Assembly: GCA_002305475.1 (NCBI GenBank)
Contig: DBRB01000019.1
Coordinates: 56,022-120,021 of the forward strand
From: a candidate division WWE3 bacterium UBA1379
GTDB taxonomy: Bacteria > Patescibacteriota > WWE3 > UBA101185 > UBA10185
Direction of reading: 5' to 3'
DNA: 64,000 nucleotides
Shown: piece by piece, positions 3,531 through 28,407 of the stretch
Position numbering within the stretch: the stretch's first letter is position 1
How the letters are laid out: each line of letters begins with the position of its first letter
Notes under the pieces: model-generated
What the model was told of the DNA's origin: nothing
Seen by the model: the letters and a program-made list of their open reading frames with translations, nothing else
The model's database searches: none
Program-made: the position numbers and the translations under genes

Positions 3531-3857
3531 TTATGCCATCTTGATTGTTATCCCAACCCCGGCAGGAAGACTTAAATGGGATAAGCTGTCAATGGTTGAT
3601 GGTGTCGGATTCATAATATCCAGTACTCTTTTATGTGTTCTTAATTCAAACTGTTCTCTTGATCTCTTATCAATATGCGGTCCTCTGATTACTGTAAATC
3701 TTTCGATTTTTGTCGGCAAAGGAATCGGGCCGATAACCTTGGCACCTGTTCGAATAGCTGTATCTACAATCTTGGAACAGCTTAAATCCATAATTCTGCT
3801 GTCATAGCTGTTTAATTTTATTCTGATCTTTGATTCTTGTTTTTTTCCTGTTGCCAT
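3531..3857 (-). CDS. rpsJ: 30S ribosomal protein S10
   Basis: 108 aa. …IRIKLNSYD…RTGA…GPIPLPT…[12 protein letters not shown]…REQFE.RTHKRV.DI… is a canonical S10. Confidence 0.95.
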
Positions 3858-3909: not shown

Positions 3910-5088
3910 TTAAGCAATCACCTTGGTAACAACACCTGCACCGACAGTGTGACCACCTTCTCTGATAGCAAATCGAAGACCTTCTTCCATAGCTACCGGA
4001 GTAATCAGTTTAACCTTAAATGAAGTGTTATCACCGGGCATAACCATTTCCACACCTTCCTTAAGTGTAATCTCACCGGTCACGTCAGTAGTTCTTAAAT
4101 AGAACTGTGGTCTGTATCCACTGAAGAATGGTTTCTGACGTCCGCCTTCTTCCTTGGAAAGGATGATGACTTCAGCTTCGAATTCTGTATGAGGTTTGAC
4201 AGATCCCGGTTTGGCTAAAACCTGACCTCTTTCAATCTGATCTCTTTCAACACCTCTTAATAGGATACCTACATTGTCACCGGCCTGACCTTCATTCATC
4301 TGCTTCTTGAACATTTCAACACCTGTGACTACGGATTTTCTGGTTTCTTTAATACCGACGATTTCTACTTCTTCGTTGATGCTAATCTTACCTCTTTCTA
4401 CTCTTCCGGTTGCCACAGTTCCTCTACCCATGATAGAGAAAACATCTTCCACCGGCATCAAGAATGGTTTATCCAGTTCTCGGACTGGATCCGGAATATA
4501 GGAATCTACAGCATCCATTAAGTCTTCGATAGCTTTTACAGATTCAGGATCTCCTTCTAAAGCTTTAGCAGCTGATCCTTTAATAACAGGAGCATTTTCT
4601 CCGTCAAATCCGTACTTTGTTAAAAGTTCGCGGACTTCTAGTTCAACGAGGTCTAAAATTTCTTTATCGGCAACCATGTCAGTCTTGTTCATAAAGACAA
4701 CCATTGCCGGTACGTTAACCTGTTTAGCTAAAAGAATGTGTTCTCTGGTTTGAGGCATAGGTCCGTCAGGAGAGGACACAACAAGAATTGCTCCATCCAT
4801 CTGAGCAGCACCGGTAATCATGTTCTTGATATAGTCAGCATGTCCCGGAGCGTCAATGTGAGCGTAGTGTCTTTTATCTGTTTCGTACTCGACGTGAGTG
4901 ATATTAATGGTAATACCTCTTTCACGTTCTTCAGGAGCCTTATCGATAGAATCGTAAGCTCTGAATTCCGCTTTGCCTTTTCCAGCGAGAACTTTAGTAA
5001 TAGCAGCCGTTAATGTCGTCTTACCATGATCAACGTGACCTATGGTTCCGATATTAACGTGTGGTTTTGTTCTTTCAAATGTAGCCAT
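3910..5088 (-). CDS. tuf: Elongation factor Tu
   Basis: 392 aa. [30 protein letters not shown] motifs present. Lies downstream of fusA as in the str operon. Confidence 0.97.
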
Positions 5089-5624
5089 ATTATTCCTTTC
5101 AGGCTATCGCGGATTTTCAAATAACTTATATTCCGCGAACTAAAAAACTTAATACTCTGTTTTTAAATTTACTTATAACATAGAACATTTTCAGCTTTAT
5201 GCAATAGGCTTTCGAATTCTAACACATCTTTTACGTTTTATGAACCCCTTTTTTGCTTAAGGACACTGATTTTTATCCTTTTTAAGATTCTACGTTTTTT
5301 AGTGTTGTTAATTTGATAGTCTATTCAACCATAAATTACTACGCTGGACAGTAAACCAGATTTGAAGTAGAAAATCAAGTATTTCATAGAGTAGGTAAGG
5401 TTATGAAACAAAGTTTGATTTACCAATTTTCTAGTACCCTATAGTAATGAGATGTTTTCTTCTATCAACAACTCTAATCTCATTAATTGGGGGGTTTAAC
5501 TACTCTTTAAAACACGATAAATTAAGAAATACTAGTACACTGAATGATTTAACAATCAAGGATAACTTACAAATAATAAAAATTTAGAATTTAATTCCAT
5601 CAATGTTTCTGATAGATTTATATT

Positions 5625-7124
5625 ATGAGTTTGTCATTTACATCACTTTCATCACAAGAAGAATATTCAGAAGAAACAATGGATGAGTTAGTCAGAAAAT
5701 TTGAATTGGCAGAAGATGGACCAATCAACTTTACTAAAAATTTACATAAAATGTTTTCTGCACCCGAGGGATTAACTGAAAAAAAACAAGATCGAGTACA
5801 GCAATATGCCGAAGAAATATTAGGAGGTATTAATAGTGTCGTGAATAATAATAGAAAGGAATTGCAGGATTTTTTAAAAGAAAATGTTGCAACAGAAAGG
5901 CTTAACTCAAAAACCTTGCCGGAATTTGTTAAACAAACAGAGGATGCCATAGATTCATTGCGGTTTTTAGATAGTATTTTTGAAAATTCCCACAATGAAA
6001 CTTTATATGTAAATGCTATGAACTATGTAGACGGAGGATTAATTATTTCCTTGCATAAAGAAGATTGGAGTGATTGGCAGATTGGATCGAAAAGAATAAA
6101 TAGAGTTGAAATAAGTATAAAAACTTCTTCCGAACAAAAATCACAGGATTATACAATGCTTCAGCTGGGATTCAATCTATATAATATAAATGAAGAAGTT
6201 ACATCATTAAGAGCGGATATTCATCCGATTAGAAGACAGCAAATACAACCCGAAATAGTTAGTGATCAGCAAAATTACCAGGTACAATTAGATATAGAAC
6301 ATGATACTAATGAATCGTTTGTTCATAATAAACATATAGAACTCAAATCCATAAACCAGGGACAGATAATCAGCAATTTTAGAATGATTCAGCAGGTATT
6401 CCTGATTAACTTTGTAGAAAATTACCTTAATAAATCATCAACAAAACTCATAATGAACAGAGAAATAAGAGAACTAATAGAAAAAGAGTATAGTAAGGAA
6501 AAAAATCTACTAGGGTTAAACTCAAAATCAGGTGATTACCAAGCTAAACCGCCTAACCAACATCTTGTGGAAAGATTAGCAGATGATGAAAATATAATAA
6601 ATACAAACTTTCAAGTAGGCGAATATATTGCAAAATTACTAAAAAAACGTCTACCCAGTAAATTTGATGATAACCAATCACGTGAAGAAAAACAAATGGC
6701 ACAAGAAACTTTCGATAACTTAAAACCTAATGACGTGGTTACTATATGGTTTTTGAACCTGAGAAATGAACCAATAACTAAAAACAATAAACATAAGATT
6801 GAAAAAGAATACGGCGTAAATTCAGATAAAGGACAAACCTTACAAGAATCTAAAGATTTGTATGACTATACCTTAGGAATGAATATTTCACTTGAAGATA
6901 TGATAAAACAAATACATCAGCAGGCGACAGAACAAACTGAATATAATACGCTTCTAGAATTAATATCAGAAATTGAAAATGATGATATAAAAGAGGAAGA
7001 TAAATCAGAATATATCCGTCAAATAATTGCCTTATATTATGCAAAAATATATTTTGACGATGCAATTAAGAGCATAGAGGAAGAAAGTAATAAAGCAACT
7101 GTGTATATTCCTAAAAAGCGTTAA
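5625..7124 (+). CDS. Hypothetical acidic, coiled-coil-rich protein (499 aa) with no recognizable domain
   Basis: Uninterrupted 1.5-kb ORF in ~30% GC DNA, unlikely by chance given AT-rich stop codons. Lies opposite-strand between tuf and fusA. No catalytic motifs recognised by eye. Confidence 0.6.
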   Translation: MSLSFTSLSSQEEYSEETMDELVRKFELAEDGPINFTKNLHKMFSAPEGLTEKKQDRVQQYAEEILGGINSVVNNNRKELQDFLKENVATERLNSKTLPEFVKQTEDAIDSLRFLDSIFENSHNETLYVNAMNYVDGGLIISLHKEDWSDWQIGSKRINRVEISIKTSSEQKSQDYTMLQLGFNLYNINEEVTSLRADIHPIRRQQIQPEIVSDQQNYQVQLDIEHDTNESFVHNKHIELKSINQGQIISNFRMIQQVFLINFVENYLNKSSTKLIMNREIRELIEKEYSKEKNLLGLNSKSGDYQAKPPNQHLVERLADDENIINTNFQVGEYIAKLLKKRLPSKFDDNQSREEKQMAQETFDNLKPNDVVTIWFLNLRNEPITKNNKHKIEKEYGVNSDKGQTLQESKDLYDYTLGMNISLEDMIKQIHQQATEQTEYNTLLELISEIENDDIKEEDKSEYIRQIIALYYAKIYFDDAIKSIEEESNKATVYIPKKR

Positions 7125-7244
7125 ATTATTTTAATACAGATTCTTCTAACCTATAGTTGACATAAGTCGCTGTATAACCTATAATATAACTATCTTCTCC
7201 CTACTGAGGTAATATGTTTACAAAAAACAGAAACCTCCAATTGA

Positions 7245-7645
7245 ATAGTGCCAAAAAGGCCTTTGGCTTTGTTGGCACATGGCAGGGAGAGCAGCCACGA
7301 AACGCCAGTACGCGTGTATGGGGTACACGTCAGTATAGGCGCTTTGAGCGCTGCTAACCCTGGGATGCAGTAGTATCTCCTGCATCGCCCACTTATGGGA
7401 GAGATACAATGATTATGCCTTATATGAAGGCATAATGCCTGGCTGAGAACATTTGCCTTAGAGCATGTTCCAGTCTAGGTATAGACAATGGCTGATAGCT
7501 ATTGGAAGGGATGATCCTAGATCTTACAAATACCGCGAGGTAAGCCAGGATTTGAACAACCAAGAAAACCTACTAATGATTCCCATATATCATAACTTGC
7601 GAGGGAATCACTGTAGTAGACTGCTTAAAGCCAGAAAATTACACG
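7245..7645. ncRNA. Candidate structured non-coding RNA of unknown class; strand not determined (plus strand slightly favoured)
   Basis: A ~400-nt island visibly far GC-richer (estimated >50% by eye, not computed) than the ~35% GC neighbourhood. Many perfect local stems: GTGCCAA…TTGGCAC (7246-7280) enclosing palindrome AAGGCCTT; CGTGTA-TGGGG-TACACG (~7311-7329); GGCGC-TTTGA-GCGC (~7338-7352); GATGCAG-N9-CTGCATC (~7364-7386); ATTATGCC-N9-GGCATAAT (~7413-7438). Followed by a 9-bp perfect hairpin AAAGGCCGG…CCGGCCTTT (7671-7709). No conserved motifs of RNase P, tmRNA, SRP, 6S or tRNA found. Confidence 0.35.
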
Positions 7646-7737
7646 GATACCTTTTTTGTATTCGTGTCTAAAGGCCGGAACAGGATTTTACATCCCTACC
7701 GGCCTTTATCATTTGATAAACGATTTTAGATTAAGGG

Positions 7738-7770
7738 ATAAAAAATCCCGGAACTAAGTCCGGGATTTCG
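7738..7770 (-). terminator. Rho-independent terminator downstream of fusA
   Basis: Minus strand reads CGAAATCCCGGACTTAGTTCCGGGATTTTTT: a 7-bp GC stem (ATCCCGG/CCGGGAT) followed by a U-run, 23 nt after the fusA stop. Confidence 0.75.
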
Positions 7771-7792
7771 TGTTATTCGATTTGATAATTCT

Positions 7793-9868
7793 TTACTTTC
7801 CGCTTTTGACCAATTCAGCAACGTTTGCCGGAACTTCAGCATAGTGGCTCGGTTCCATGGTAAAAGAAGCCCTTCCCTGAGACATACCCCTAAGTTCAGT
7901 TGCATATCCAAACATTTCAGCTAAAGGAACCTTAGCGCTGATTGCTCTGGCATTACCCCTTGTTTCCGTACCCTCAATCTGGCCTCTCTTTGAGGAAAGA
8001 TTTCCGATAACATCACCCATAAATTCTTCAGGTGTTACAACCTCAACTTTCATGATAGGTTCTAAAAGATACGGACGGGCTTTATTCTGTGCATTCTTGA
8101 ATGCTTCAGCAGCAGCCATCTTAAATGCCATTTCGGAAGAGTCAACATCATGGTATGAACCGTCTATTAGAGTAAATTTCACATCCACTACCGGATATCC
8201 TGCTACCACACCGGTTTCTGCAGCATCACGCAAACCTTTTTCTACAGGAGCGATGTATTCTCTTGGAATAGAACCTCCAACAATCTTGTTTTCAAATTCG
8301 ATGCCAGCCCCTCTTTCCAATGGTTCCATTGTAATAACCACATGACCATACTGTCCGCGTCCACCGGATTGTCTGATGTGTTTTCCTTCCACTTCCACTT
8401 TGTCCTTAATGCTTTCTCGGTAAGCAACTTGTGGTTTACCTGTGTTTACTTCAACATTAAATTCTCTTCTCATACGATCAACGATAATATCCAAATGCAA
8501 TTCACCCATACCATAAAGAACCGTTTCTCCAGTTTCTGCATCCGATTTAACCTTTAAAGTAGGATCTTCTTCCAAAAGTTTTTTGAGAGATTCCCCGAGT
8601 TTATCTCGGTCTGCCTTAGTCTTAGGTTCAACAACTAAACCGATAACCGGTTCGGCAAAACTGATTGCTTCCAGAGTGACGAATTTTCCTTCTTCACACA
8701 ACGTATCTCCTGTAGTTGCTTCAACACCGATGACAGCACCTATTTCCCCCGCTTTCAGTTCCTTCACTTCTTCTCTATGATTTGCATGCATTAACAAAAG
8801 TCGACCAATTCGTTCTTTTTTGTCTTTGGTTGAGTTATAGACATAGGAACCTGCACTAATCATTCCTGAATATACTCGGACATAGGTTAATCTTCCAACA
8901 TATGGATCTGTCTGAACCTTAAATGCCAAAGTAACCATCTGTTCAGATGAATCAGGATTCACTTCAACAGGATTTCCGTCCTTGTCATAACCAAGGATAT
9001 GTCCGACGTCTTTAGGAGATGGGAGAAAATCTATCACACCGTCCAGCATTTTCTGCACCCCGACATTTGCCAATGATGCTCCGGCATAAACGGGAAATAG
9101 CTCATGGGCGATGGTAAGTTTTCTGATACCTGCTTTCAGATCTTCAACAGTAATTTCTTCACCACCTAGATACTTTTCGATTAAAGCGTCATCACCTTCT
9201 GCTACCTTTTCCACCAGAATTTTTCTGTATTCCTCCGTTTTTTCCTGCATATCTTGAGGTATCTGAATCTCTACTACATCAGCACCCAGTTTCCCTTCGA
9301 ATCTGTATGCTTTTCTTTCAATCAGATCGATAACGGAATTAAACTCACCTTCCAAGCCGATCGGAAGCTGAACAGCAACAGCATTTTTAGTCAGACGCTC
9401 ATGAATAGATTTTAAGGACATGTAGAAATCCCCCCCGACTTTATCCAGTTTATTTGCAAAAAAGAGAAGGGGAACATGATATTTTTCCGCCTGTCTGAAA
9501 ACAGTCTCTGACTGAGGTTCAACACCCTGTGAAGAGTCCAGTAAAATTACTCCTCCATCTAATACACGAAGTGATCTTTCAACTTCAGCAGTGAAGTCAA
9601 CGTGTCCAGGAGTATCAATAATATTAATTCGATGATCTTTCCAGAAACAGGTAGTAGCAGCGGATGTAATGGTAATACCCCGCTCTCGTTCCTGTGCCAT
9701 CCAGTCCATCTGGGCCGCACCTTCATGAGTCTCACCTATTTTATGAGACCTTCCGGTGTAATAAAGCACCCGTTCGGTAGTCGTGGTTTTTCCCGCATCA
9801 ATATGTGCGATAATACCAATATTTCTGATCCTCTCCAGAGGATATGTTTTGTTCATTGTGTCTGCCAT
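7793..9868 (-). CDS. fusA: Elongation factor G
   Basis: 691 aa. [25 protein letters not shown]-domain motifs. Placed between rpsG and tuf. Confidence 0.97.
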
Positions 9869-10086: not shown

Positions 10087-10272
10087 TTATGCTTCTACAG
10101 TTTCCTCAGCAGGCTTTGCCTGTCTAGATAGCTTCAGGATATAGGAAAATCCTGCAAGCAAGATCACAGCTCCGACAAATACGAAATACATATTACCGGT
10201 TTTCTGCGACAACATCAGGAAAAATGTACCTCCAAAGGAAGTGAAATAAATAAGGATTCTTTGTAGAGACAT
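10087..10272 (-). CDS. Small predicted membrane protein (61 aa, two hydrophobic helices)
   Basis: ORF between rpsG and fusA. Two ~20-aa hydrophobic stretches (ILIYFTSFGGTFFLML; YFVFVGAVILLAGFSYIL). Followed by a perfect hairpin AAGGCTCCC-TTTC-GGGAGCCTT at 10050-10072. Coding status unverified. Confidence 0.35.
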   Translation of the reverse strand: MSLQRILIYFTSFGGTFFLMLSQKTGNMYFVFVGAVILLAGFSYILKLSRQAKPAEETVEA

Positions 10273-10439: not shown

Positions 10440-10907
10440 TTAGAAACGACCGAAATGGGCGAATGCTCGGTTGGCTTCAGCCATCTTGTGGGTGTCATCT
10501 CTTTTCTTAATCGCATTCCCGACACCTTCTTTTGCATTCTTCAGTTCTTCGTAGAGTTTTTCTTCCATGGCTTTACCTCGCCTATTTCGTGCTGCACCTA
10601 TAATCCATCTGATAGCCAATGCTTCGGATCTGTCATGCTTGACAGGAGTAGGAACCTGATATGTGGCTCCGCCAACTCTTCTGGAACGCACTTCCTGTTG
10701 AGGCATTACATTCTTTACTGCTTCTTCAAACATCTGCAAAGCAGTCTTTTTGTCTTCCGCCAGTCTGCTGATAGCTCTATAAACAATATTTCGTGCCAAG
10801 TTTTTTTCCCCATCCAACATTACCACATTTATCATGCGGCTGACTGTTTTGGATTTGAAAACCGGATCCACTTCAACTTGTCTTTTTTGTACTTTTTTAC
10901 CTCGCAT
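10440..10907 (-). CDS. rpsG: 30S ribosomal protein S7
   Basis: 155 aa. …DPVFKSK.V…INV.M.DGKK…A.RIVY.A… N-terminal and …RW… C-terminal S7 blocks. Follows rpsL. Confidence 0.95.
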   Translation of the reverse strand: MRGKKVQKRQVEVDPVFKSKTVSRMINVVMLDGEKNLARNIVYRAISRLAEDKKTALQMFEEAVKNVMPQQEVRSRRVGGATYQVPTPVKHDRSEALAIRWIIGAARNRRGKAMEEKLYEELKNAKEGVGNAIKKRDDTHKMAEANRAFAHFGRF

Positions 10908-10912
10908 ATGTT

Positions 10913-11326
10913 TTAAGCTTTAGGCTTCTTGGCTCCGTAAACCGATCTGGAAGTTTTTCTGTTCTGTACTCCCTGCAGATCAAAGGAACCTCGAACAATT
11001 GTATACTTGATGCCGGGCAGATCCTTGACTCTACCCCCGCGGACTAGAACCACGGAGTGTTCCTGCAGATTATGTCCTTCACCGGGAATATAGGCTGTAA
11101 CCTCCCTTTTGTTGGATAAACGCACACGCACAACTTTTCGCAAAGCTGAGTTAGGCTTTTTCGGAGTCTGAGTTTTTACCTGTAGACAGACACCCTTTTT
11201 AAAAGGAGAGTCATGCTTAATTGCTACACGCTTTCTGGTATTGTATACCTCCGTCAAAGCTTTAGCCTTAGTCTTTTTATTTTTTGCTTTTCTACTTTTT
11301 CTTAATAATTGGTTAATTGTCGGCAT
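10913..11326 (-). CDS. rpsL: 30S ribosomal protein S12
   Basis: 137 aa. [10 protein letters not shown]…[26 protein letters not shown]…[33 protein letters not shown] is a near-canonical S12. Confidence 0.97.
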
Positions 11327-11349: not shown

Positions 11350-14300
11350 TTAATCCAATTTTGCTTCAGGACCGGTCGGAATTAAACGTCCAATAATTAC
11401 GTTTTCTTTCAGTCCAATTAGCTTATCGACTTTACCAGAGGCGGCTGCATCGGTCAAGACATTGCTTGTCTGAATAAATGAAGCAGCTGATAAGAAGCTG
11501 TCGGTATTCAATGAAGCTTTTGTGATACCCAGCAGCTGAACCTTAGCACTGGCAGGAGTACCGCCCGCGGCTAATACTCTTTCATTTTCTTCTTCAAAGC
11601 TAGCTTTTGTTACAACCTCGCCTACCAAAAAGTCGGTATCACCGGACTCTTCAATTCTGACATTGTTAAACATCTGTCTGACGATGACCTCAATGTGTTT
11701 ATCATTCAAAGACACACCCTGTGAAGAGTATACTTTCTGAATTTCGTTAATGATATAGCGTTTGGTTTCTTCTACTCCGACTGTTCTGAGAAGATCGGTT
11801 AGATCAAGGTGTCCGGATGTCAGTTTTTCACCCTTGGCTACCAGTTGTCCATCTTGAACTACAATTTCAGCAACCGGATCCACCATGTATTCAGCTGTCT
11901 GAATTTCATCAGAAGGATCGGTGGCAATCACCACGATTTTTCTTTCATCACCAGATGTAGAAATCTTTACGGTACCGGTAATTTCACTCATGATAGACAG
12001 GAATTTCGGAGCTCTTGCTTCAACAATTTCCTCAACTCTGGGCAACCCTTGGGTAATATCTTTTCCTGCAATTCCTCCCGTATGGAATGTTCTTAATGTC
12101 AGCTGTGTACCCGGTTCACCGATGGATTGAGCGGCTGCCACACCAACTGCCGTTCCAATTTCAACATCTTTTCTGGTAACAAGATCCAAACCGTAACACT
12201 TTGAACAAATACCTCTTCGGGTTTCACATCCCATCGGAGATCTGAGAATAATTTTGTCCACTTCAGCCTGTTGAATAGTTTTTATATTATCTGGTGTCAA
12301 TAATGTACCGGCTTTTAAGATTACCTTGCCATTAGCTTTCACATCCTGAGCAAGATATCTTCCGGAAACTCTTTCTGCAAATTTCTGCAAAAGTGTTTCT
12401 TCATCCAGTTTAATTTCTCGACCTCTATTTGTACCGCAGTCATACTCTCTTACTAATACGTCCTGGGCAACATCCACCAGTCTTCTGGTCAAATAACCTG
12501 CATCTGCAGTCTTTAGACCCTTATCAACCAAACCTTTTCTTGCACCACGTCCTGATACGAAATATTCCAAACCCGATAATCCGGTCTTGTAGTTGCCTAG
12601 AATCGGCAGCTGCACCAGATGTCCGGTAGGATCTGAAACCAGACCCTTGACTCCTGCAATCTGTTTAACCTGATCTCTGGATGCTCTGGTTGAACCGGAT
12701 TTAACAAGCACTTTCACAGGGTTGTCTTCCGGAAGGCTGCTCCAGACAGCATTATCAATTTCTGCAGTAACCTGATTCCACGCATCTTCAGTTAATCTCT
12801 GTGCTTCAGCTCTGGTTATTAAACCTCGCTTAAAGTTCTTATCGATTTCTGCAACCGCCTGGTATCCTTTTGCGATGATTTCATCTCTGGATTGAGGAAT
12901 CTTGATATCATCCAAAGAGACGGACTGACCGGATACGGTTCCGTATTTCAGACCCAGATCTTTTAGATCGTCAATCAATTTGGTAATTACTTCATTTGAT
13001 TCTCTTTCAAAAGCCTGAGCAAGCAATGCCTTAATACCGCTTTTAGTCATTTCTTTATTTATGAACCCAAAAGACTGTGGAATTATTTCATTGAATAAGA
13101 CTCTTCCCGGTGTAGTTTCCACTAATTCCCCTTTGATGTTTACCTTAACACGCTGTCTTAAGGAGATCCTGTCACCTTTATGCATGCTGAGGTAATAAAG
13201 AAGTTCATCTTGATCAGCAAACACGGTTTCATGTAGCGGCAGATTCTCATCCACAGATGTCATGTAATAAGTACCGAAAAGCATAATTTTAGTAGGTACT
13301 GACATCGGTGACCCATCAGAAGGATTAAGCAGATTATTTGTAGAAATAATCTTATTTCGTGCTTCATTCTTTGCCGCTTCGGATAACGGAAGATGAACAG
13401 CCATCTGGTCTCCGTCAAAGTCAGCATTAAATCCTGAACAGACACAAAGGTGCAGTCTGATGGCATTGCCTTCAATTAGTTTGGGATAGAATGCCTGAAT
13501 ACCTAATCTCCAAAGTGTAGGAGCTCTGTTTAAGAGAACCGGATGATCTTTGACCACTTCTTCAAGAATATCCCATACTTCTGCAGAACGGGCTTCAATA
13601 AAGAACTTTGCGCTTTTCACATTAGGAGCATATCCTCTGCTTAATATTTCTCTTAAGACAAATGGCTTGAATAATTCCAGAGCCATTTCTTTTGGAAGAC
13701 CACATTCATTCAGCTTTAAGTTAGGACCATTGATAATCACACCTCGTCCTGAGTAGTCGACTCTTTTACCAAGAAGGTTCAATCTGAAAATACCCTGCTT
13801 TCCTTTAAGCATATCGGAAAGGGATCTTAATTCTTTCTTACCTCTTGCCAGTCTGGTCTTTTGTCTTTGCTTGGAGGAATCAAATAGGGCATCCAGAGAT
13901 TCCTGAAGCATTCTTTTTTCGTTTCTAATAATTATTTCCGGGGCACCCAGATCTAAAAGCCTCTTAAGTCGATTATTTCTGTTAATAAGTCTTCTGTATA
14001 GTTCATTCAAATCGGATGAAGCAAATCTTCCGCCTTCCAGCTGAACCAGAGGTCTAAGATCAGGCGGGATAACCGGTACTACTGACAAGATCATTCTTGA
14101 CGGTTCTATTCCGGCTCTTCTGAACTGTTCAACTACTTTTAATCTCTTTGCCAGTTTGGATGCTTTCTGACCGCGGGCATTTTCCAGTTCTTCCCTAAGC
14201 TGGGAAGCCAATTCATTCAGATCCATCTTAGAAAGGATACCTTCTAATGCTTCGGCTCCGATCTCCATCTTAGTGAAGATCTTCAGATAGTCGCTTAAAT

Positions 14301-15030
14301 TAACGTATTCGTTATCGGATAAAACAGAGTACAACTCTACGCTTTCAATTTTCTTTTGGATCAGTTTAAAATGCTTCTCATAATCTTTCAGTTTCTTATC
14401 AAAGGACGCTCTAAGTGTCTGAATTCTCTGGCGCAGTTTGATGGACTCTTCCTGAGCCTTAAAGTCATCTTTCTTTTTAGATAATTCCTCCAACATTTTT
14501 TCAAAGTCTTTAGACTGTCTTTCATATTCTTTTTCCACTTCTGCTTTTGCTTCTGCCAGATCCTCTTCTACTTTTGAAATTGCCTGAGCTTTTTTAGTTC
14601 CATCAAACTGAGTGACGATAAAGGAAGAGAAATAAATCACGGATTCTATATTTCTTGGAGAAATATCCAGCAGTAATGCCATTTTTGAAGGAATACCGCG
14701 GAAGAACCAGACATGAGCAGCCGGACTGGCCAATTCTATATGACCCATTCTTTCTCTTCTGACTCTTGAGTGGGTAACTTCTACACCGCATTTATCGCAG
14801 ATGACGCCTTTATATCGGATACCTTTATACTTGCCGCAGTAACATTCATAATTTTTTACCGGACCGAAAATCTGCTCGTCGAATAAACCATATTTTTCCG
14901 CTTTGAATGTACGGTAATTAATGGTTTCCGGTTTTGTCACTTCCCCGAATGACCAGGATCTGATCTCTTCCGGAGAAGCCAAGTATATTCTTATTGAATC
15001 AAAATCTTTTAAATCACTTAAATATTTCAT
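11350..15030 (-). CDS. rpoC: DNA-directed RNA polymerase subunit beta'
   Basis: 1226 aa. Zn-finger CxxC…CxxC near the N-terminus. NADFDGDQMAVH catalytic loop. Trigger-loop and bridge-helix regions present. Confidence 0.97.
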   Translation of the reverse strand: MKYLSDLKDFDSIRIYLASPEEIRSWSFGEVTKPETINYRTFKAEKYGLFDEQIFGPVKNYECYCGKYKGIRYKGVICDKCGVEVTHSRVRRERMGHIELASPAAHVWFFRGIPSKMALLLDISPRNIESVIYFSSFIVTQFDGTKKAQAISKVEEDLAEAKAEVEKEYERQSKDFEKMLEELSKKKDDFKAQEESIKLRQRIQTLRASFDKKLKDYEKHFKLIQKKIESVELYSVLSDNEYVNLSDYLKIFTKMEIGAEALEGILSKMDLNELASQLREELENARGQKASKLAKRLKVVEQFRRAGIEPSRMILSVVPVIPPDLRPLVQLEGGRFASSDLNELYRRLINRNNRLKRLLDLGAPEIIIRNEKRMLQESLDALFDSSKQRQKTRLARGKKELRSLSDMLKGKQGIFRLNLLGKRVDYSGRGVIINGPNLKLNECGLPKEMALELFKPFVLREILSRGYAPNVKSAKFFIEARSAEVWDILEEVVKDHPVLLNRAPTLWRLGIQAFYPKLIEGNAIRLHLCVCSGFNADFDGDQMAVHLPLSEAAKNEARNKIISTNNLLNPSDGSPMSVPTKIMLFGTYYMTSVDENLPLHETVFADQDELLYYLSMHKGDRISLRQRVKVNIKGELVETTPGRVLFNEIIPQSFGFINKEMTKSGIKALLAQAFERESNEVITKLIDDLKDLGLKYGTVSGQSVSLDDIKIPQSRDEIIAKGYQAVAEIDKNFKRGLITRAEAQRLTEDAWNQVTAEIDNAVWSSLPEDNPVKVLVKSGSTRASRDQVKQIAGVKGLVSDPTGHLVQLPILGNYKTGLSGLEYFVSGRGARKGLVDKGLKTADAGYLTRRLVDVAQDVLVREYDCGTNRGREIKLDEETLLQKFAERVSGRYLAQDVKANGKVILKAGTLLTPDNIKTIQQAEVDKIILRSPMGCETRRGICSKCYGLDLVTRKDVEIGTAVGVAAAQSIGEPGTQLTLRTFHTGGIAGKDITQGLPRVEEIVEARAPKFLSIMSEITGTVKISTSGDERKIVVIATDPSDEIQTAEYMVDPVAEIVVQDGQLVAKGEKLTSGHLDLTDLLRTVGVEETKRYIINEIQKVYSSQGVSLNDKHIEVIVRQMFNNVRIEESGDTDFLVGEVVTKASFEEENERVLAAGGTPASAKVQLLGITKASLNTDSFLSAASFIQTSNVLTDAAASGKVDKLIGLKENVIIGRLIPTGPEAKLD

Positions 15031-27964: not shown

Positions 27965-28186
27965 ATGAATTCAACAAAGACAGTAATAATTAAAGACGGT
28001 TTGGTAAAGGAAGCCATGATGGGTGGTTTATTCAAAGTGGAATTTCCTGATGAGACTATTGCAATAGCTTCATTATCTGGTAAAATGCGTAAGTTCAAAA
28101 TAAGAATTCTCCCTGGAGACAGGGTTAAAGTGGAGTTTTCTCCACACGATCTTACACGCGGTAGAATTTCCTATCGATTAAGATAA
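27965..28186 (+). CDS. infA: Translation initiation factor IF-1
   Basis: 73 aa. S1-like OB fold. …GGLFKVEF.D…I.A..SGKMRK..IRILPGDRVKVE.SPHDLTRGRI.YR matches IF-1. Confidence 0.93.
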   Translation: MNSTKTVIIKDGLVKEAMMGGLFKVEFPDETIAIASLSGKMRKFKIRILPGDRVKVEFSPHDLTRGRISYRLR

Positions 28187-28287: not shown

Positions 28288-28404
28288 ATGAAAGTACGAT
28301 CATCGATAAAACCAATTTGCAGAGAGTGTAAAATTATCAAGCGCGGGGGCGTTCTGAGAGTTATTTGTAAAAGAAACCCCAAACATAAACAAAGACAAGG
28401 ATAA
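28288..28404 (+). CDS. rpmJ: 50S ribosomal protein L36 (38 aa; absent from the ORF track because it is shorter than 60 aa)
   Basis: Translated by hand as [39 protein letters not shown]-x2-C…C-x-N/H zinc ribbon. Sits between infA and rpsM as in the spc/alpha operon. Confidence 0.9.
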
Positions 28405-28407
28405 AAT

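What the first reader, a model, noticed from the sequence alone, without database searches (positions are those of the whole stretch)
7245..7710. ~400-nt GC-rich island packed with perfect hairpins, a candidate novel structured ncRNA
In a ~35% GC genome, a 400-nt island that looks far GC-richer (estimated >50% by eye; no computation was possible) is the kind of signal given by structured RNAs. It contains at least six perfect 6-9-bp stems: GTGCCAA/TTGGCAC enclosing AAGGCCTT; CGTGTA-TGGGG-TACACG; GGCGC-TTTGA-GCGC; GATGCAG-N9-CTGCATC; ATTATGCC-N9-GGCATAAT; AAAGGCCGG-N21-CCGGCCTTT. I could not match the conserved cores of RNase P (GGAAAGTCCGGGC / ACAGAAACCGGCTTA), tmRNA (GATTCGACG…GGTTCGA.TCC), SRP helix 8 (GGAAGCAGCC in the right context), 6S or tRNA. 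Its position just downstream of the orphan ORF on the plus strand, ending in a terminator-like hairpin, suggests a plus-strand ncRNA or a highly structured 3' UTR.
Basis: seen in the sequence. Interest (0 to 1): 0.7.

Follow-up and report, generated by a model that had tools for sequence, protein, structure and literature searches.

The report
Orphan hairpin-rich non-coding RNA candidate
A roughly 0.5-kb stretch packed with stable hairpins, preceded by a textbook promoter, sits in a species-specific insertion between two translation-factor genes of an uncultured WWE3-like (CPR) bacterium; it is probably a non-coding RNA of no known family, but no relative was found, so its structure and function cannot yet be tested.

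Summary
The hairpins are real and far beyond chance. There are 10 perfect stems of at least 6 bp against 2.2±1.5 in shuffles (0/1000). The fold z-score is -8.8, the most structured place in the 64-kb window. The GC claim is overstated: 45.5% against 39.3% for the window, reaching 50% only in the first 200 nt.

The island lies in a ~2.4-kb cargo insertion between fusA and tuf of a WWE3-like Patescibacteria genome, downstream of ORF499. The only 12/12 sigma-70 consensus promoter in the window (7157-7185, +) points into it.

It matches no Rfam family, tRNA or tmRNA, and no six-frame translation hits any protein. I tested and rejected group I intron, TIGR stem-loop array, CsrB-like sponge and attC.

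No homolog turned up in the closest relatives (EF-G 82-84%), 80 species-representative genome loci, or phage and plasmid records. Exact 20-26-mer scans of viral contigs and JGI metagenomes also found none. Covariation is therefore impossible.

A second strain is 99.7% identical but lacks 74 nt that include the -10 box.

Best reading: a young, lineage-restricted structured RNA on the plus strand (confidence 0.4). The rivals, a cis-acting structured 3' region or insulator and a non-functional relic, remain open.

The parts
5625..7124 (+). ORF499: AT-rich (27-32% GC) protein gene of unknown function, immediately upstream on the same strand. No terminator separates it from the island.
   Evidence: No Pfam, PADLOC or PHROG assignment. 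Six remote homologs with a conserved N-terminal domain. No fold match.
7157..7185 (+). Consensus sigma-70 promoter TTGACA-17 nt-TATAAT; predicted transcription start near 7192.
   Evidence: 12/12. It is the only 12/12 site on either strand of the 64-kb window.
7165..7238 (+). 74-nt segment present here but absent from a 99.7%-identical strain contig (L083). It contains the -10 box, the predicted 5' end and the first hairpin (7206-7237).
7192..7768 (+). Putative non-coding transcript, about 520-580 nt, running from the predicted start to hairpin 7669-7708 or to the terminator 7743-7768.
   Evidence: Fold z = -8.8. Helix list with pair probabilities. No coding signal.
7248..7278 (+). Hairpin: GUGCCAA/UUGGCAC (7 bp) plus AAGGCC/GGCUUU (6 bp, one G-U).
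   Evidence: P = 0.96.
7283..7362 (+). 80-nt composite stem-loop (CAGGG...CCCUG, AGCAGC/GCUGCU, tip GCGUGUAU-GGG-GUACACGU). This is the GC-richest part.
   Evidence: P = 0.95-1.00.
7364..7407 (+). Hairpin GAUGCAG-N9-CUGCAUC (7364-7386). Its loop GUAUCUC (7373-7379) is perfectly complementary to GAGAUAC (7401-7407), which allows a pseudoknot or an alternative fold.
   Evidence: The pseudoknot is inferred only.
7412..7436 (+). Perfect 10-bp hairpin AUUAUGCCUU-AUAUG-AAGGCAUAAU.
7435..7482 (+). 48-nt interrupted stem-loop.
   Evidence: P = 0.79-0.99.
7486..7504 (+). 8-bp hairpin CAAUGGCU-GAU-AGCUAUUG (one G-U).
   Evidence: P = 0.96.
7519..7553 (+). Stem-loop with a GNRA (GCGA) tetraloop on UACC/GGUA. 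The outer stem has two G-U pairs.
7570..7619 (+). Stem-loop of 6 + 8 bp (CUACUA, UGAUUCCC) with an 18-nt loop.
   Evidence: P = 0.98-0.99.
7641..7667 (+). 10-bp hairpin ACACGGAUAC-CUUUUUU-GUAUUCGUGU.
   Evidence: P = 0.98.
7669..7708 (+). 10-bp stem UAAAGGCCGG/CCGGCCUUUA enclosing the small hairpin GGAU-UUUAC-AUCC. It looks like a terminator but lacks a real U-tract.
7743..7768 (.). Bidirectional intrinsic terminator. It has a U-run on the minus strand for fusA and a partial U-run on the plus strand.
   Evidence: P = 0.96.

Best explanation
The island is most likely a young, lineage-restricted non-coding RNA locus on the plus strand. It arrived as part of a ~2.4-kb cargo insertion (ORF499 plus the island, about 5400-7790) in the fusA-tuf spacer of a WWE3-related Patescibacteria genome.

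Proposed mechanism:
1. RNA polymerase starts at the consensus sigma-70 promoter (7157-7185), at about 7192. Read-through from ORF499, which has no terminator of its own, also covers the island.
2. The transcript folds as it is made into a chain of about a dozen very stable local stem-loops.
3. It ends at the 7669-7708 hairpin or at the bidirectional terminator 7743-7768, which it shares with the convergent fusA.
4. The result is a nuclease-resistant RNA of about 0.5 kb that acts as RNA, probably as a protein-binding or scaffold RNA of the cassette.

Shown: the promoter consensus, the exceptional folding potential, the lack of coding signal, the lack of any known family, and the insertion context.

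Inferred: that the island is transcribed, where the transcript ends, that it acts in trans, and any link to ORF499.
For: - Hairpin density and fold stability are far beyond shuffles and are the maximum for the window.
- The only 12/12 TTGACA-17-TATAAT site in 128 kb of searched strand lies 60 nt upstream and points into the island. My own estimate from base composition is about 0.1 such sites expected in the whole window, and about 1e-4 within 100 nt of the island.
- The organism uses sigma-70-type promoters. Relatives conserve the tuf promoter TTCATA-17-TG-TAGAAT.
- GC is raised above the flanks.
- There are 12 G-U pairs on the plus strand against 6-8 on the minus strand, and the plus-strand MFE is lower (-195.7 against -187.5 kcal/mol).
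- The single substitution between the two strains (C7516T) turns a predicted G-C pair into G-U on the plus strand. That small hairpin has a pair probability of only 0.30.
- No coding signal: no protein hit for any frame at E <= 10, no Pfam hit, and the promoter-proximal 47-codon ORF loses its start in the second strain.
- No Rfam family, tRNA or tmRNA.
Against: - No homolog was found, so there is no covariation or conservation evidence at all.
- The three closest relatives (EF-G 82-84% identical) carry other cargo or nothing at this site.
- The second strain lacks the -10 box and the first ~46 nt, and has TTGACA changed to TTGGCA. The promoter is therefore dispensable or newly gained.
- The fold is a string of local, mostly perfect hairpins with no stable long-range helix, and it folds almost as well on the minus strand. 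That also fits DNA palindromes or leftover terminators.
- ORF499's remote homologs have no such RNA next to them.
- No expression data could be consulted.
Confidence: 0.4

Rival explanations
1. The island acts in cis, as a structured 3' region or insulator. It is the 3' untranslated tail of the ORF499 transcript. Its stack of hairpins blocks 3' exonucleases and stops transcription from the inserted cassette from running antisense into the essential, convergent fusA gene. It has no trans-acting role.
For: There is no terminator between the ORF499 stop (7124) and the island. The island lies exactly between the convergent ORF499 and fusA. The structure is a chain of independent local hairpins, several of them terminator-like. 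The strain without the internal promoter keeps the hairpin region at 99.7% identity.
Against: A perfect promoter between the ORF and the hairpins, pointing at fusA, is the opposite of what an insulator needs. Most of the hairpins lack U-tracts. About 470 nt and 12 hairpins is far more than termination or stabilisation requires. Other members of the ORF499 family have no such tail.
Confidence: 0.25
2. The island is a non-functional relic. This spacer is a hotspot where foreign cassettes come and go. The island would be decaying foreign DNA, such as leftover palindromes or terminators or a non-coding end of a lost element, with an accidental or fossil promoter.
For: The fusA-tuf spacer holds different, unrelated cargo in each close relative, and nothing in others. 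The island occurs in one species only. One strain has already lost 74 nt including the promoter. Divergence between the strains is the same in the island (1/386) as in ORF499 (5/1500), so no extra constraint is visible.
Against: Decay should erode stems, yet ten are perfect, and the fold z-score of -8.8 is the extreme of the window. A 12/12 promoter in the right place and orientation is very unlikely by chance. None of the palindromes recurs elsewhere in the 64 kb. There is no similarity to the relatives' cargo genes.
Confidence: 0.25
3. The island works at the DNA level. The palindromes would act as DNA: a recombination site (attC-like), a single-strand origin, or transposon ends that mediate insertion at this hotspot.
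For: Both strands fold almost equally well. The location is a variable insertion site.
Against: The island has no attC core sites (RYYYAAC ... GTTRRRY). It has no terminal inverted or direct repeats bounding the insertion. No integrase, transposase or Rep domain was found in ORF499. The excess of G-U pairs on the plus strand points to RNA.
Confidence: 0.05
4. The island is a known RNA too diverged to recognise (RNase P, tmRNA, 6S, group I intron, possibly within a split tRNA, OLE/GOLLD/ROOL and others), or it encodes small proteins.
For: Patescibacteria carry many group I introns, some of which standard annotation tools miss (PMC13011429). By eye and from memory I saw a few short RNase P-like strings. 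A 47-codon ORF with a GAGG Shine-Dalgarno sequence starts at 7214.
Against: cmscan reports none of these families even at E <= 10 on 1 kb. ARAGORN finds nothing, with or without intron mode. The P4 strands of RNase P are absent from the sequence. RF00028 is one of the two models that PMC13011429 used to detect Patescibacteria introns, and it gives nothing here. The small ORFs have no homolog at E <= 10, and the 47-codon ORF loses its start and Shine-Dalgarno sequence in the second strain.
Confidence: 0.05

Closest known systems
Large bacterial ncRNAs found as GC-rich intergenic islands in AT-rich genomes (OLE, GOLLD, ROOL, HEARO, raiA)
   Same: It is long (about 0.5 kb), GC-enriched relative to its flanks, extremely stable in its predicted fold, non-coding, has its own promoter, and sits next to variable or mobile DNA.
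   Different: It matches none of their Rfam models. It is a single-species orphan, whereas those classes are defined by hundreds of covarying homologs. Its predicted fold is a string of local hairpins rather than a multi-domain structure closed by long-range helices.
TIGR-Tas stem-loop arrays (PMC12045711), which occur in CPR bacteria and phages
   Same: It is in a CPR genome. It is a tandem series of variable palindromic hairpins next to an unannotated protein, followed by a terminator.
   Different: The hairpin loops are 3-20 nt, so they cannot hold two 8-12-nt spacers flanked by box C (CCA) and box D (UG). The pattern CCA-N8-12-TG...CCA-N8-12-TG occurs once, at background rate, and not in a loop. 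ORF499 shows no Nop domain by Pfam or by fold search.
CsrB/RsmZ-type protein-sponge RNAs
   Same: It has a 'beads on a string' architecture of many local stem-loops driven by a strong promoter.
   Different: The loops share no motif. GGA is not enriched (10 against 7.9±2.5), and no GGA lies wholly in an unpaired stretch.
Group I introns of Patescibacteria (PMC13011429)
   Same: The phylum is the same. It is a structured RNA of a few hundred nucleotides that standard annotation might miss.
   Different: RF00028 gives no hit at E <= 10. There are no flanking exon halves of a tRNA. It is intergenic and has its own promoter.
Clusters of intergenic palindromes and terminators between convergent genes (REP/BIME-like)
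   Same: It consists of local palindromes between convergent transcription units, and some of them look like terminators.
   Different: Each palindrome is unique, and none recurs in the 64-kb window. The island is far longer and more GC-rich than a terminator pair.

Membership tests
Any Rfam 15 family (4227 models, including RNase P A/B, tmRNA, 6S, SRP, OLE, GOLLD, ROOL, HEARO, raiA and ribozymes) | Score at or above the family's gathering threshold against its covariance model | tested here: not met
   There are no hits over the whole window. At E <= 10 on 6900-7900 there are only nine matches of 12-23 bits to unrelated sRNA models. Seven of them lie on or partly over the terminator region 7636-7826, one (STnc470, 7123-7220) lies over the promoter, and one (GlsR6, 7408-7464) lies inside the island.
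tRNA / tmRNA | Cloverleaf or tRNA-like domain (T-arm and acceptor stem), plus a tag reading frame for tmRNA | tested here: not met
   ARAGORN finds no genes in the window. It also finds none in intron mode at the default threshold or in tmRNA mode at a relaxed threshold; only low-scoring calls appear for tRNA at a relaxed threshold.
Group I intron (including tRNA-inserted introns of Patescibacteria) | Conserved catalytic core recognised by RF00028, and interrupted host-gene exons on both sides | tested here: not met
   RF00028 gives no hit at E <= 10. ARAGORN finds no split tRNA. The custom model gpI_bact_tRNA.cm used in PMC13011429 was not available.
TIGR-Tas stem-loop array | Repeated units with two 8-12-nt spacers, each flanked by box C (CCA) and box D (UG), inside palindromic stems | tested here: not met
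   The pattern matches once, at background frequency, and not in a loop. The hairpin loops are 3-20 nt.
TIGR-Tas stem-loop array | An adjacent Nop-domain (Tas) protein | tested here: not met
CsrB/Rsm sponge RNA | Many GGA (ANGGA) motifs exposed in hairpin loops | tested here: not met
   There are 10 GGA against 7.9±2.5 expected, and in none are all three bases unpaired in the MFE fold.
Integron attC site | R''(RYYYAAC) and R'(GTTRRRY) core sites bracketing an imperfect palindrome | tested here: not met
   No such pair occurs on either strand of 7100-7800.
REP/MITE-like repeated palindromes | Multiple dispersed copies in the same genome | tested here: inconclusive
   There is no second copy in the 64-kb window. 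The rest of the genome was not available.
Protein-coding gene or pseudogene | A homolog at protein level, or an open frame kept between strains | tested here: not met
   No hit at E <= 10 for all stop-free segments of at least 25 codons. Pfam finds nothing. The 47-codon ORF loses its start in L083. There is no similarity to the relatives' cargo proteins.
Conserved structured ncRNA (generic criterion) | Compensatory base changes in homologs (covariation) | not testable with these tools
   The only other copy is 99.7% identical, with one substitution (G-C to G-U). No other homolog was found.
Intrinsic terminator (3' end of the transcript) | A GC-rich stem followed by a U-tract | tested here: met
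   Hairpin 7743-7768 was picked up by the terminator scan on the plus strand, and it is followed by a U-run on the minus strand for fusA. Hairpin 7669-7708 has the stem but only a weak U-tract.

The most novel reading that the evidence does not exclude
The island is the founding member of a new class of large structured RNA carried on a small mobile cassette in CPR bacteria. It would be expressed from its own strong promoter and work together with the uncharacterised ORF499-family protein as a ribonucleoprotein, for example in defence, in counter-defence, or in maintaining the cassette.
Probability: 0.1. Interest if true: 0.65.

Novelty: new variant of a known kind. Interest (0 to 1): 0.4.

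Why it matters
CPR/Patescibacteria have tiny genomes with very little non-coding DNA. A 0.5-kb, promoter-driven, exceptionally stable non-coding region wedged into the core translation (str) operon is therefore unexpected, and it is cheap to test.

If it is expressed and functional, it would add a new large RNA to a phylum in which I am aware of few described regulatory RNAs. It would also show that cargo cassettes in these reduced genomes can carry RNA genes.

If it is not functional, it is a clean example of how strongly structure statistics and a perfect promoter can point to an RNA gene without any conservation behind them.

Tried and rejected
Known RNA families
- Rfam at gathering score and at E <= 10 gave nothing meaningful.
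- ARAGORN found nothing, including in intron and tmRNA modes.

Searches for homologs, all negative
- nhmmer and blastn against 80 fusA loci from species-representative genomes.
- The three closest relatives, recovered through EF-G.
- Phage and plasmid records. Only the promoter hexamers hit Chi-like phages.
- Four exact 20-26-mers against IMG/VR.
- One 20-mer against JGI metagenomes. It gave five chance matches of 20-27 nt in contigs of 48-72% GC.

Coding
- Pfam on the two longest ORFs found nothing.
- A concatenated six-frame translation against 5.8 billion proteins found nothing at E <= 10.
- tblastn of the relatives' cargo proteins and of the neighbours of ORF499 homologs found nothing.

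ORF499 as a clue
- The word-indexed protein search found only ORF499 itself.
- A full HMMER search found six remote homologs. Their genomic contexts are unrelated to each other, and the one structured gap near a homolog turned out to be two tRNA genes.
- PADLOC and PHROGs gave nothing useful.
- The AlphaFold model was poor from a single sequence (pLDDT 35) and moderate with 7 sequences (pLDDT 64).
- The family was not found in viral contigs or phage records.

Specific ideas rejected
- TIGR stem-loop array.
- CsrB-like sponge.
- attC site.
- Group I intron or split tRNA.
- Terminal repeats bounding the insertion.

Other points
- Other CPR genomes with long fusA-tuf gaps hold a small conserved protein there, not an RNA.
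- I did not build a single-sequence covariance model. The only DNA held is the neighbourhood of the str operon in relatives, and those have no free non-coding space there.
- A literature search for the two SRA run accessions found nothing.

Full report
**What is there**

The window (39.3% GC) carries the str/S10 region on the minus strand (domains):
- rpoC, 11350-15030
- rpsL, 10913-11326
- rpsG, 10440-10907
- fusA, 7793-9868
- tuf, 3910-5088
- rpsJ, 3531-3857

The best named EF-G relatives are candidate division WWE3 (Patescibacteria/CPR). Identity is 73% to the closest species-representative genome and up to 84% in metagenomes.

Between fusA and tuf lie 2708 nt. The same gap is 127 nt in a WWE3 genome and 225 nt in the relative L086. 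This stretch holds a plus-strand ORF of 499 codons (5625-7124, 27-32% GC) and then the finding region.

**Checking the observation**

One spacer is 20 nt, not 21, and one stem is 10 bp rather than 8.

- In 7245-7710 there are 10 perfect stems of at least 6 bp, against 2.2±1.5 in 1000 dinucleotide shuffles. There are 6 of at least 7 bp against 0.57. No shuffle reached either number. No other 466-nt stretch of the window has as many.
- Folding 7192-7720 gives -195.7 kcal/mol and z = -8.8.
- In a scan of the whole window, 7201-7400 is the most structured 200-nt window (z = -5.8). All windows from 7101 to 7800 are at or below -2.5, against a window-wide mean of -0.36.
- The GC estimate was too high. 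The island is 45.5% GC, reaching 50% only in 7200-7399.

**Strand, ends and architecture**

A perfect TTGACA-17-TATAAT promoter sits at 7157-7185 on the plus strand. It is the only 12/12 site on either strand of the 64 kb. The organism uses this promoter type: a TTCATA-17-TG-TAGAAT promoter upstream of tuf is conserved in its relatives.

ORF499 has no terminator of its own, so read-through would also transcribe the island. The last large hairpin (7669-7708) lacks a real U-tract. The hairpin 7743-7768 is a bidirectional terminator shared with fusA.

The predicted structure is about 12 local stem-loops with pair probabilities of 0.8-1.0. It has no reproducible long-range helix. The loop of the 7364-7386 hairpin is perfectly complementary over 7 nt to 7401-7407, which allows a pseudoknot. 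That is inference only.

The minus strand folds nearly as well (z = -8.3). The plus-strand fold is lower in energy and has 12 G-U pairs against 6-8.

**It is not a known RNA and not coding**

- Rfam 15 gives no hit at gathering score in the window, and only noise at E <= 10.
- ARAGORN finds nothing, including in intron and tmRNA modes.
- The two longest ORFs have no Pfam match.
- All stop-free segments of at least 25 codons, concatenated, have no hit among 5.8 billion proteins at E <= 10.
- A 47-codon ORF with a GAGG Shine-Dalgarno sequence at 7214 loses both its start and the Shine-Dalgarno sequence in the second strain.

**Relatives**

A second strain (Logan contig L083) is 99.7% identical over 7239-7624, with one substitution. 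That substitution, C7516T, turns a predicted G-C pair into G-U. The same strain lacks 7165-7238 (the -10 box and the first ~46 nt of the putative RNA) and has TTGACA changed to TTGGCA. Divergence is the same in ORF499 (5/1500), so no differential constraint can be read.

Nothing else resembles the island:
- 80 fusA loci from species-representative genomes
- the three closest relatives
- phage and plasmid records
- IMG/VR exact 20-26-mers
- a JGI metagenome 20-mer, which gave only chance matches

In the closest relatives the same spacer holds unrelated cargo. L084 has three genes, L085 has three genes including a dissimilar 497-codon ORF in the equivalent position, and L086 has nothing. The conserved tuf promoter blocks map to about 5216-5251 and 5350-5385. 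The cargo here is therefore about 5400-7790, inserted right after fusA.

**ORF499**

It is not a complete orphan. A full HMMER scan of 1.84 billion representatives finds six remote homologs (E = 2e-7 to 1e-4). They share an N-terminal domain with motifs such as YTPMQLNFRFL, SLRVDMHN and FRALQxAFLxNF.

Four of their genomic contexts were recovered. They are unrelated to each other and contain no counterpart of the island. One strongly structured gap near a homolog is simply two tRNA genes.

There is no Pfam, PADLOC or PHROG assignment. A 7-sequence AlphaFold model (pLDDT 64; 80-90 in the N-terminal domain) finds no meaningful fold match. A functional link between ORF499 and the island is therefore not supported by conservation.

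**Specific hypotheses tested and rejected**

- TIGR-Tas stem-loop arrays, which are known in CPR (PMC12045711). The loops are too short, the box C/spacer/box D pattern is absent, and no Nop domain was found.
- CsrB-like sponge. There is no shared loop motif, and GGA is neither enriched nor fully unpaired.
- attC site. The core sites are absent.
- Group I intron, which is frequent in this phylum (PMC13011429). RF00028 is silent and there is no split tRNA.
- Repeated palindromic elements. There is no second copy in the window; the rest of the genome is untested.

**Interpretation**

The combination of a unique consensus promoter, GC enrichment, the most extreme fold in the window, plus-strand G-U pairs and no coding signal makes a plus-strand structured RNA the best single reading (confidence 0.4).

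Three things keep two rivals alive: the lack of any conservation, the beads-on-a-string architecture, and a strain that does without the promoter. The rivals are a cis-acting structured 3' tail or insulator between convergent genes (0.25) and a non-functional relic in an insertion hotspot (0.25). DNA-level roles, or a diverged known RNA or small proteins, are unlikely (0.05 each).

**Novelty and score**

The island belongs to no known family. In kind, it resembles the large GC-rich-island RNAs found in AT-rich bacteria, but as a single-species orphan with a simpler predicted architecture. It is worth an expression check and a nucleotide-level search of all CPR assemblies. Without these it remains a candidate. 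Interest: 0.4.

Noticed in passing
window 7165-7238; L083 1638-1653: A 99.7%-identical strain contig lacks these 74 nt (the -10 box, the predicted RNA 5' end and the first hairpin). It also has TTGACA changed to TTGGCA in the -35 box. There is only 1-nt microhomology at the junction.
   Followed up: partly
window 5089-7792; L084 8080-10941; L085 4024-7781; L086 3372-3595: The fusA-tuf spacer is a variable cargo site in this WWE3-like lineage. Each close relative holds unrelated genes there: L084 has a 3-dmu-9_3-mt-domain (PF06983) protein, an amino-acid kinase and a 379-aa unknown; L085 has two possible surface proteins (only weak or faint Pfam hits) and a 497-aa unknown. L086 and the WWE3 genome L003 hold nothing.
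   Followed up: partly
window 5216-5251 and 5350-5385 (minus strand): Two sequence blocks upstream of tuf are conserved in the close relatives. One of them (5216-5244) is a TTCATA-17-TG-TAGAAT promoter, so tuf has its own promoter whether or not the insertion is present.
   Followed up: partly
window 10087-10272 (minus strand): The unusually long rpsG-fusA gap (575 nt, against 41 nt in WWE3 L003) contains a 61-codon hydrophobic ORF. It is 47-51% identical to small ORFs at the same place in L084 and L085, so it is probably a real small membrane protein.
   Followed up: partly
window 5625-7124; P0128-P0133: ORF499 belongs to a small uncharacterised protein family with six remote homologs and a conserved N-terminal alpha/beta domain of about 270 residues. 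It has no Pfam family and no recognisable fold.
   Followed up: yes
L009, L011, L013, L021, L022, L025, L029, L045 (fusA-tuf gaps); also L006, L007, L014: Many Parcubacteria-type CPR genomes carry a conserved protein of about 90-160 aa between fusA and tuf on the operon strand. Most of them share the motif KKTGDRI(I/V)VFD. I did not identify it.
   Followed up: no
window 27967-28185 and 28289-28405: An apparent 588-nt intergenic gap with a strong fold signal (z about -5) contains the small genes infA and rpmJ. It is not a non-coding region.
   Followed up: yes
L092 10193-11170: A Cas1 gene lies about 4 kb from the ORF499 homolog P0129 in GCA_964385105.1. No array was looked for.
   Followed up: no
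window 7157-7187: The promoter segment is 90.6% identical over 31 nt to intergenic sites in about 60 Chi-like Salmonella/Escherichia phages (E = 0.6). This is most likely just a shared consensus promoter.
   Followed up: no
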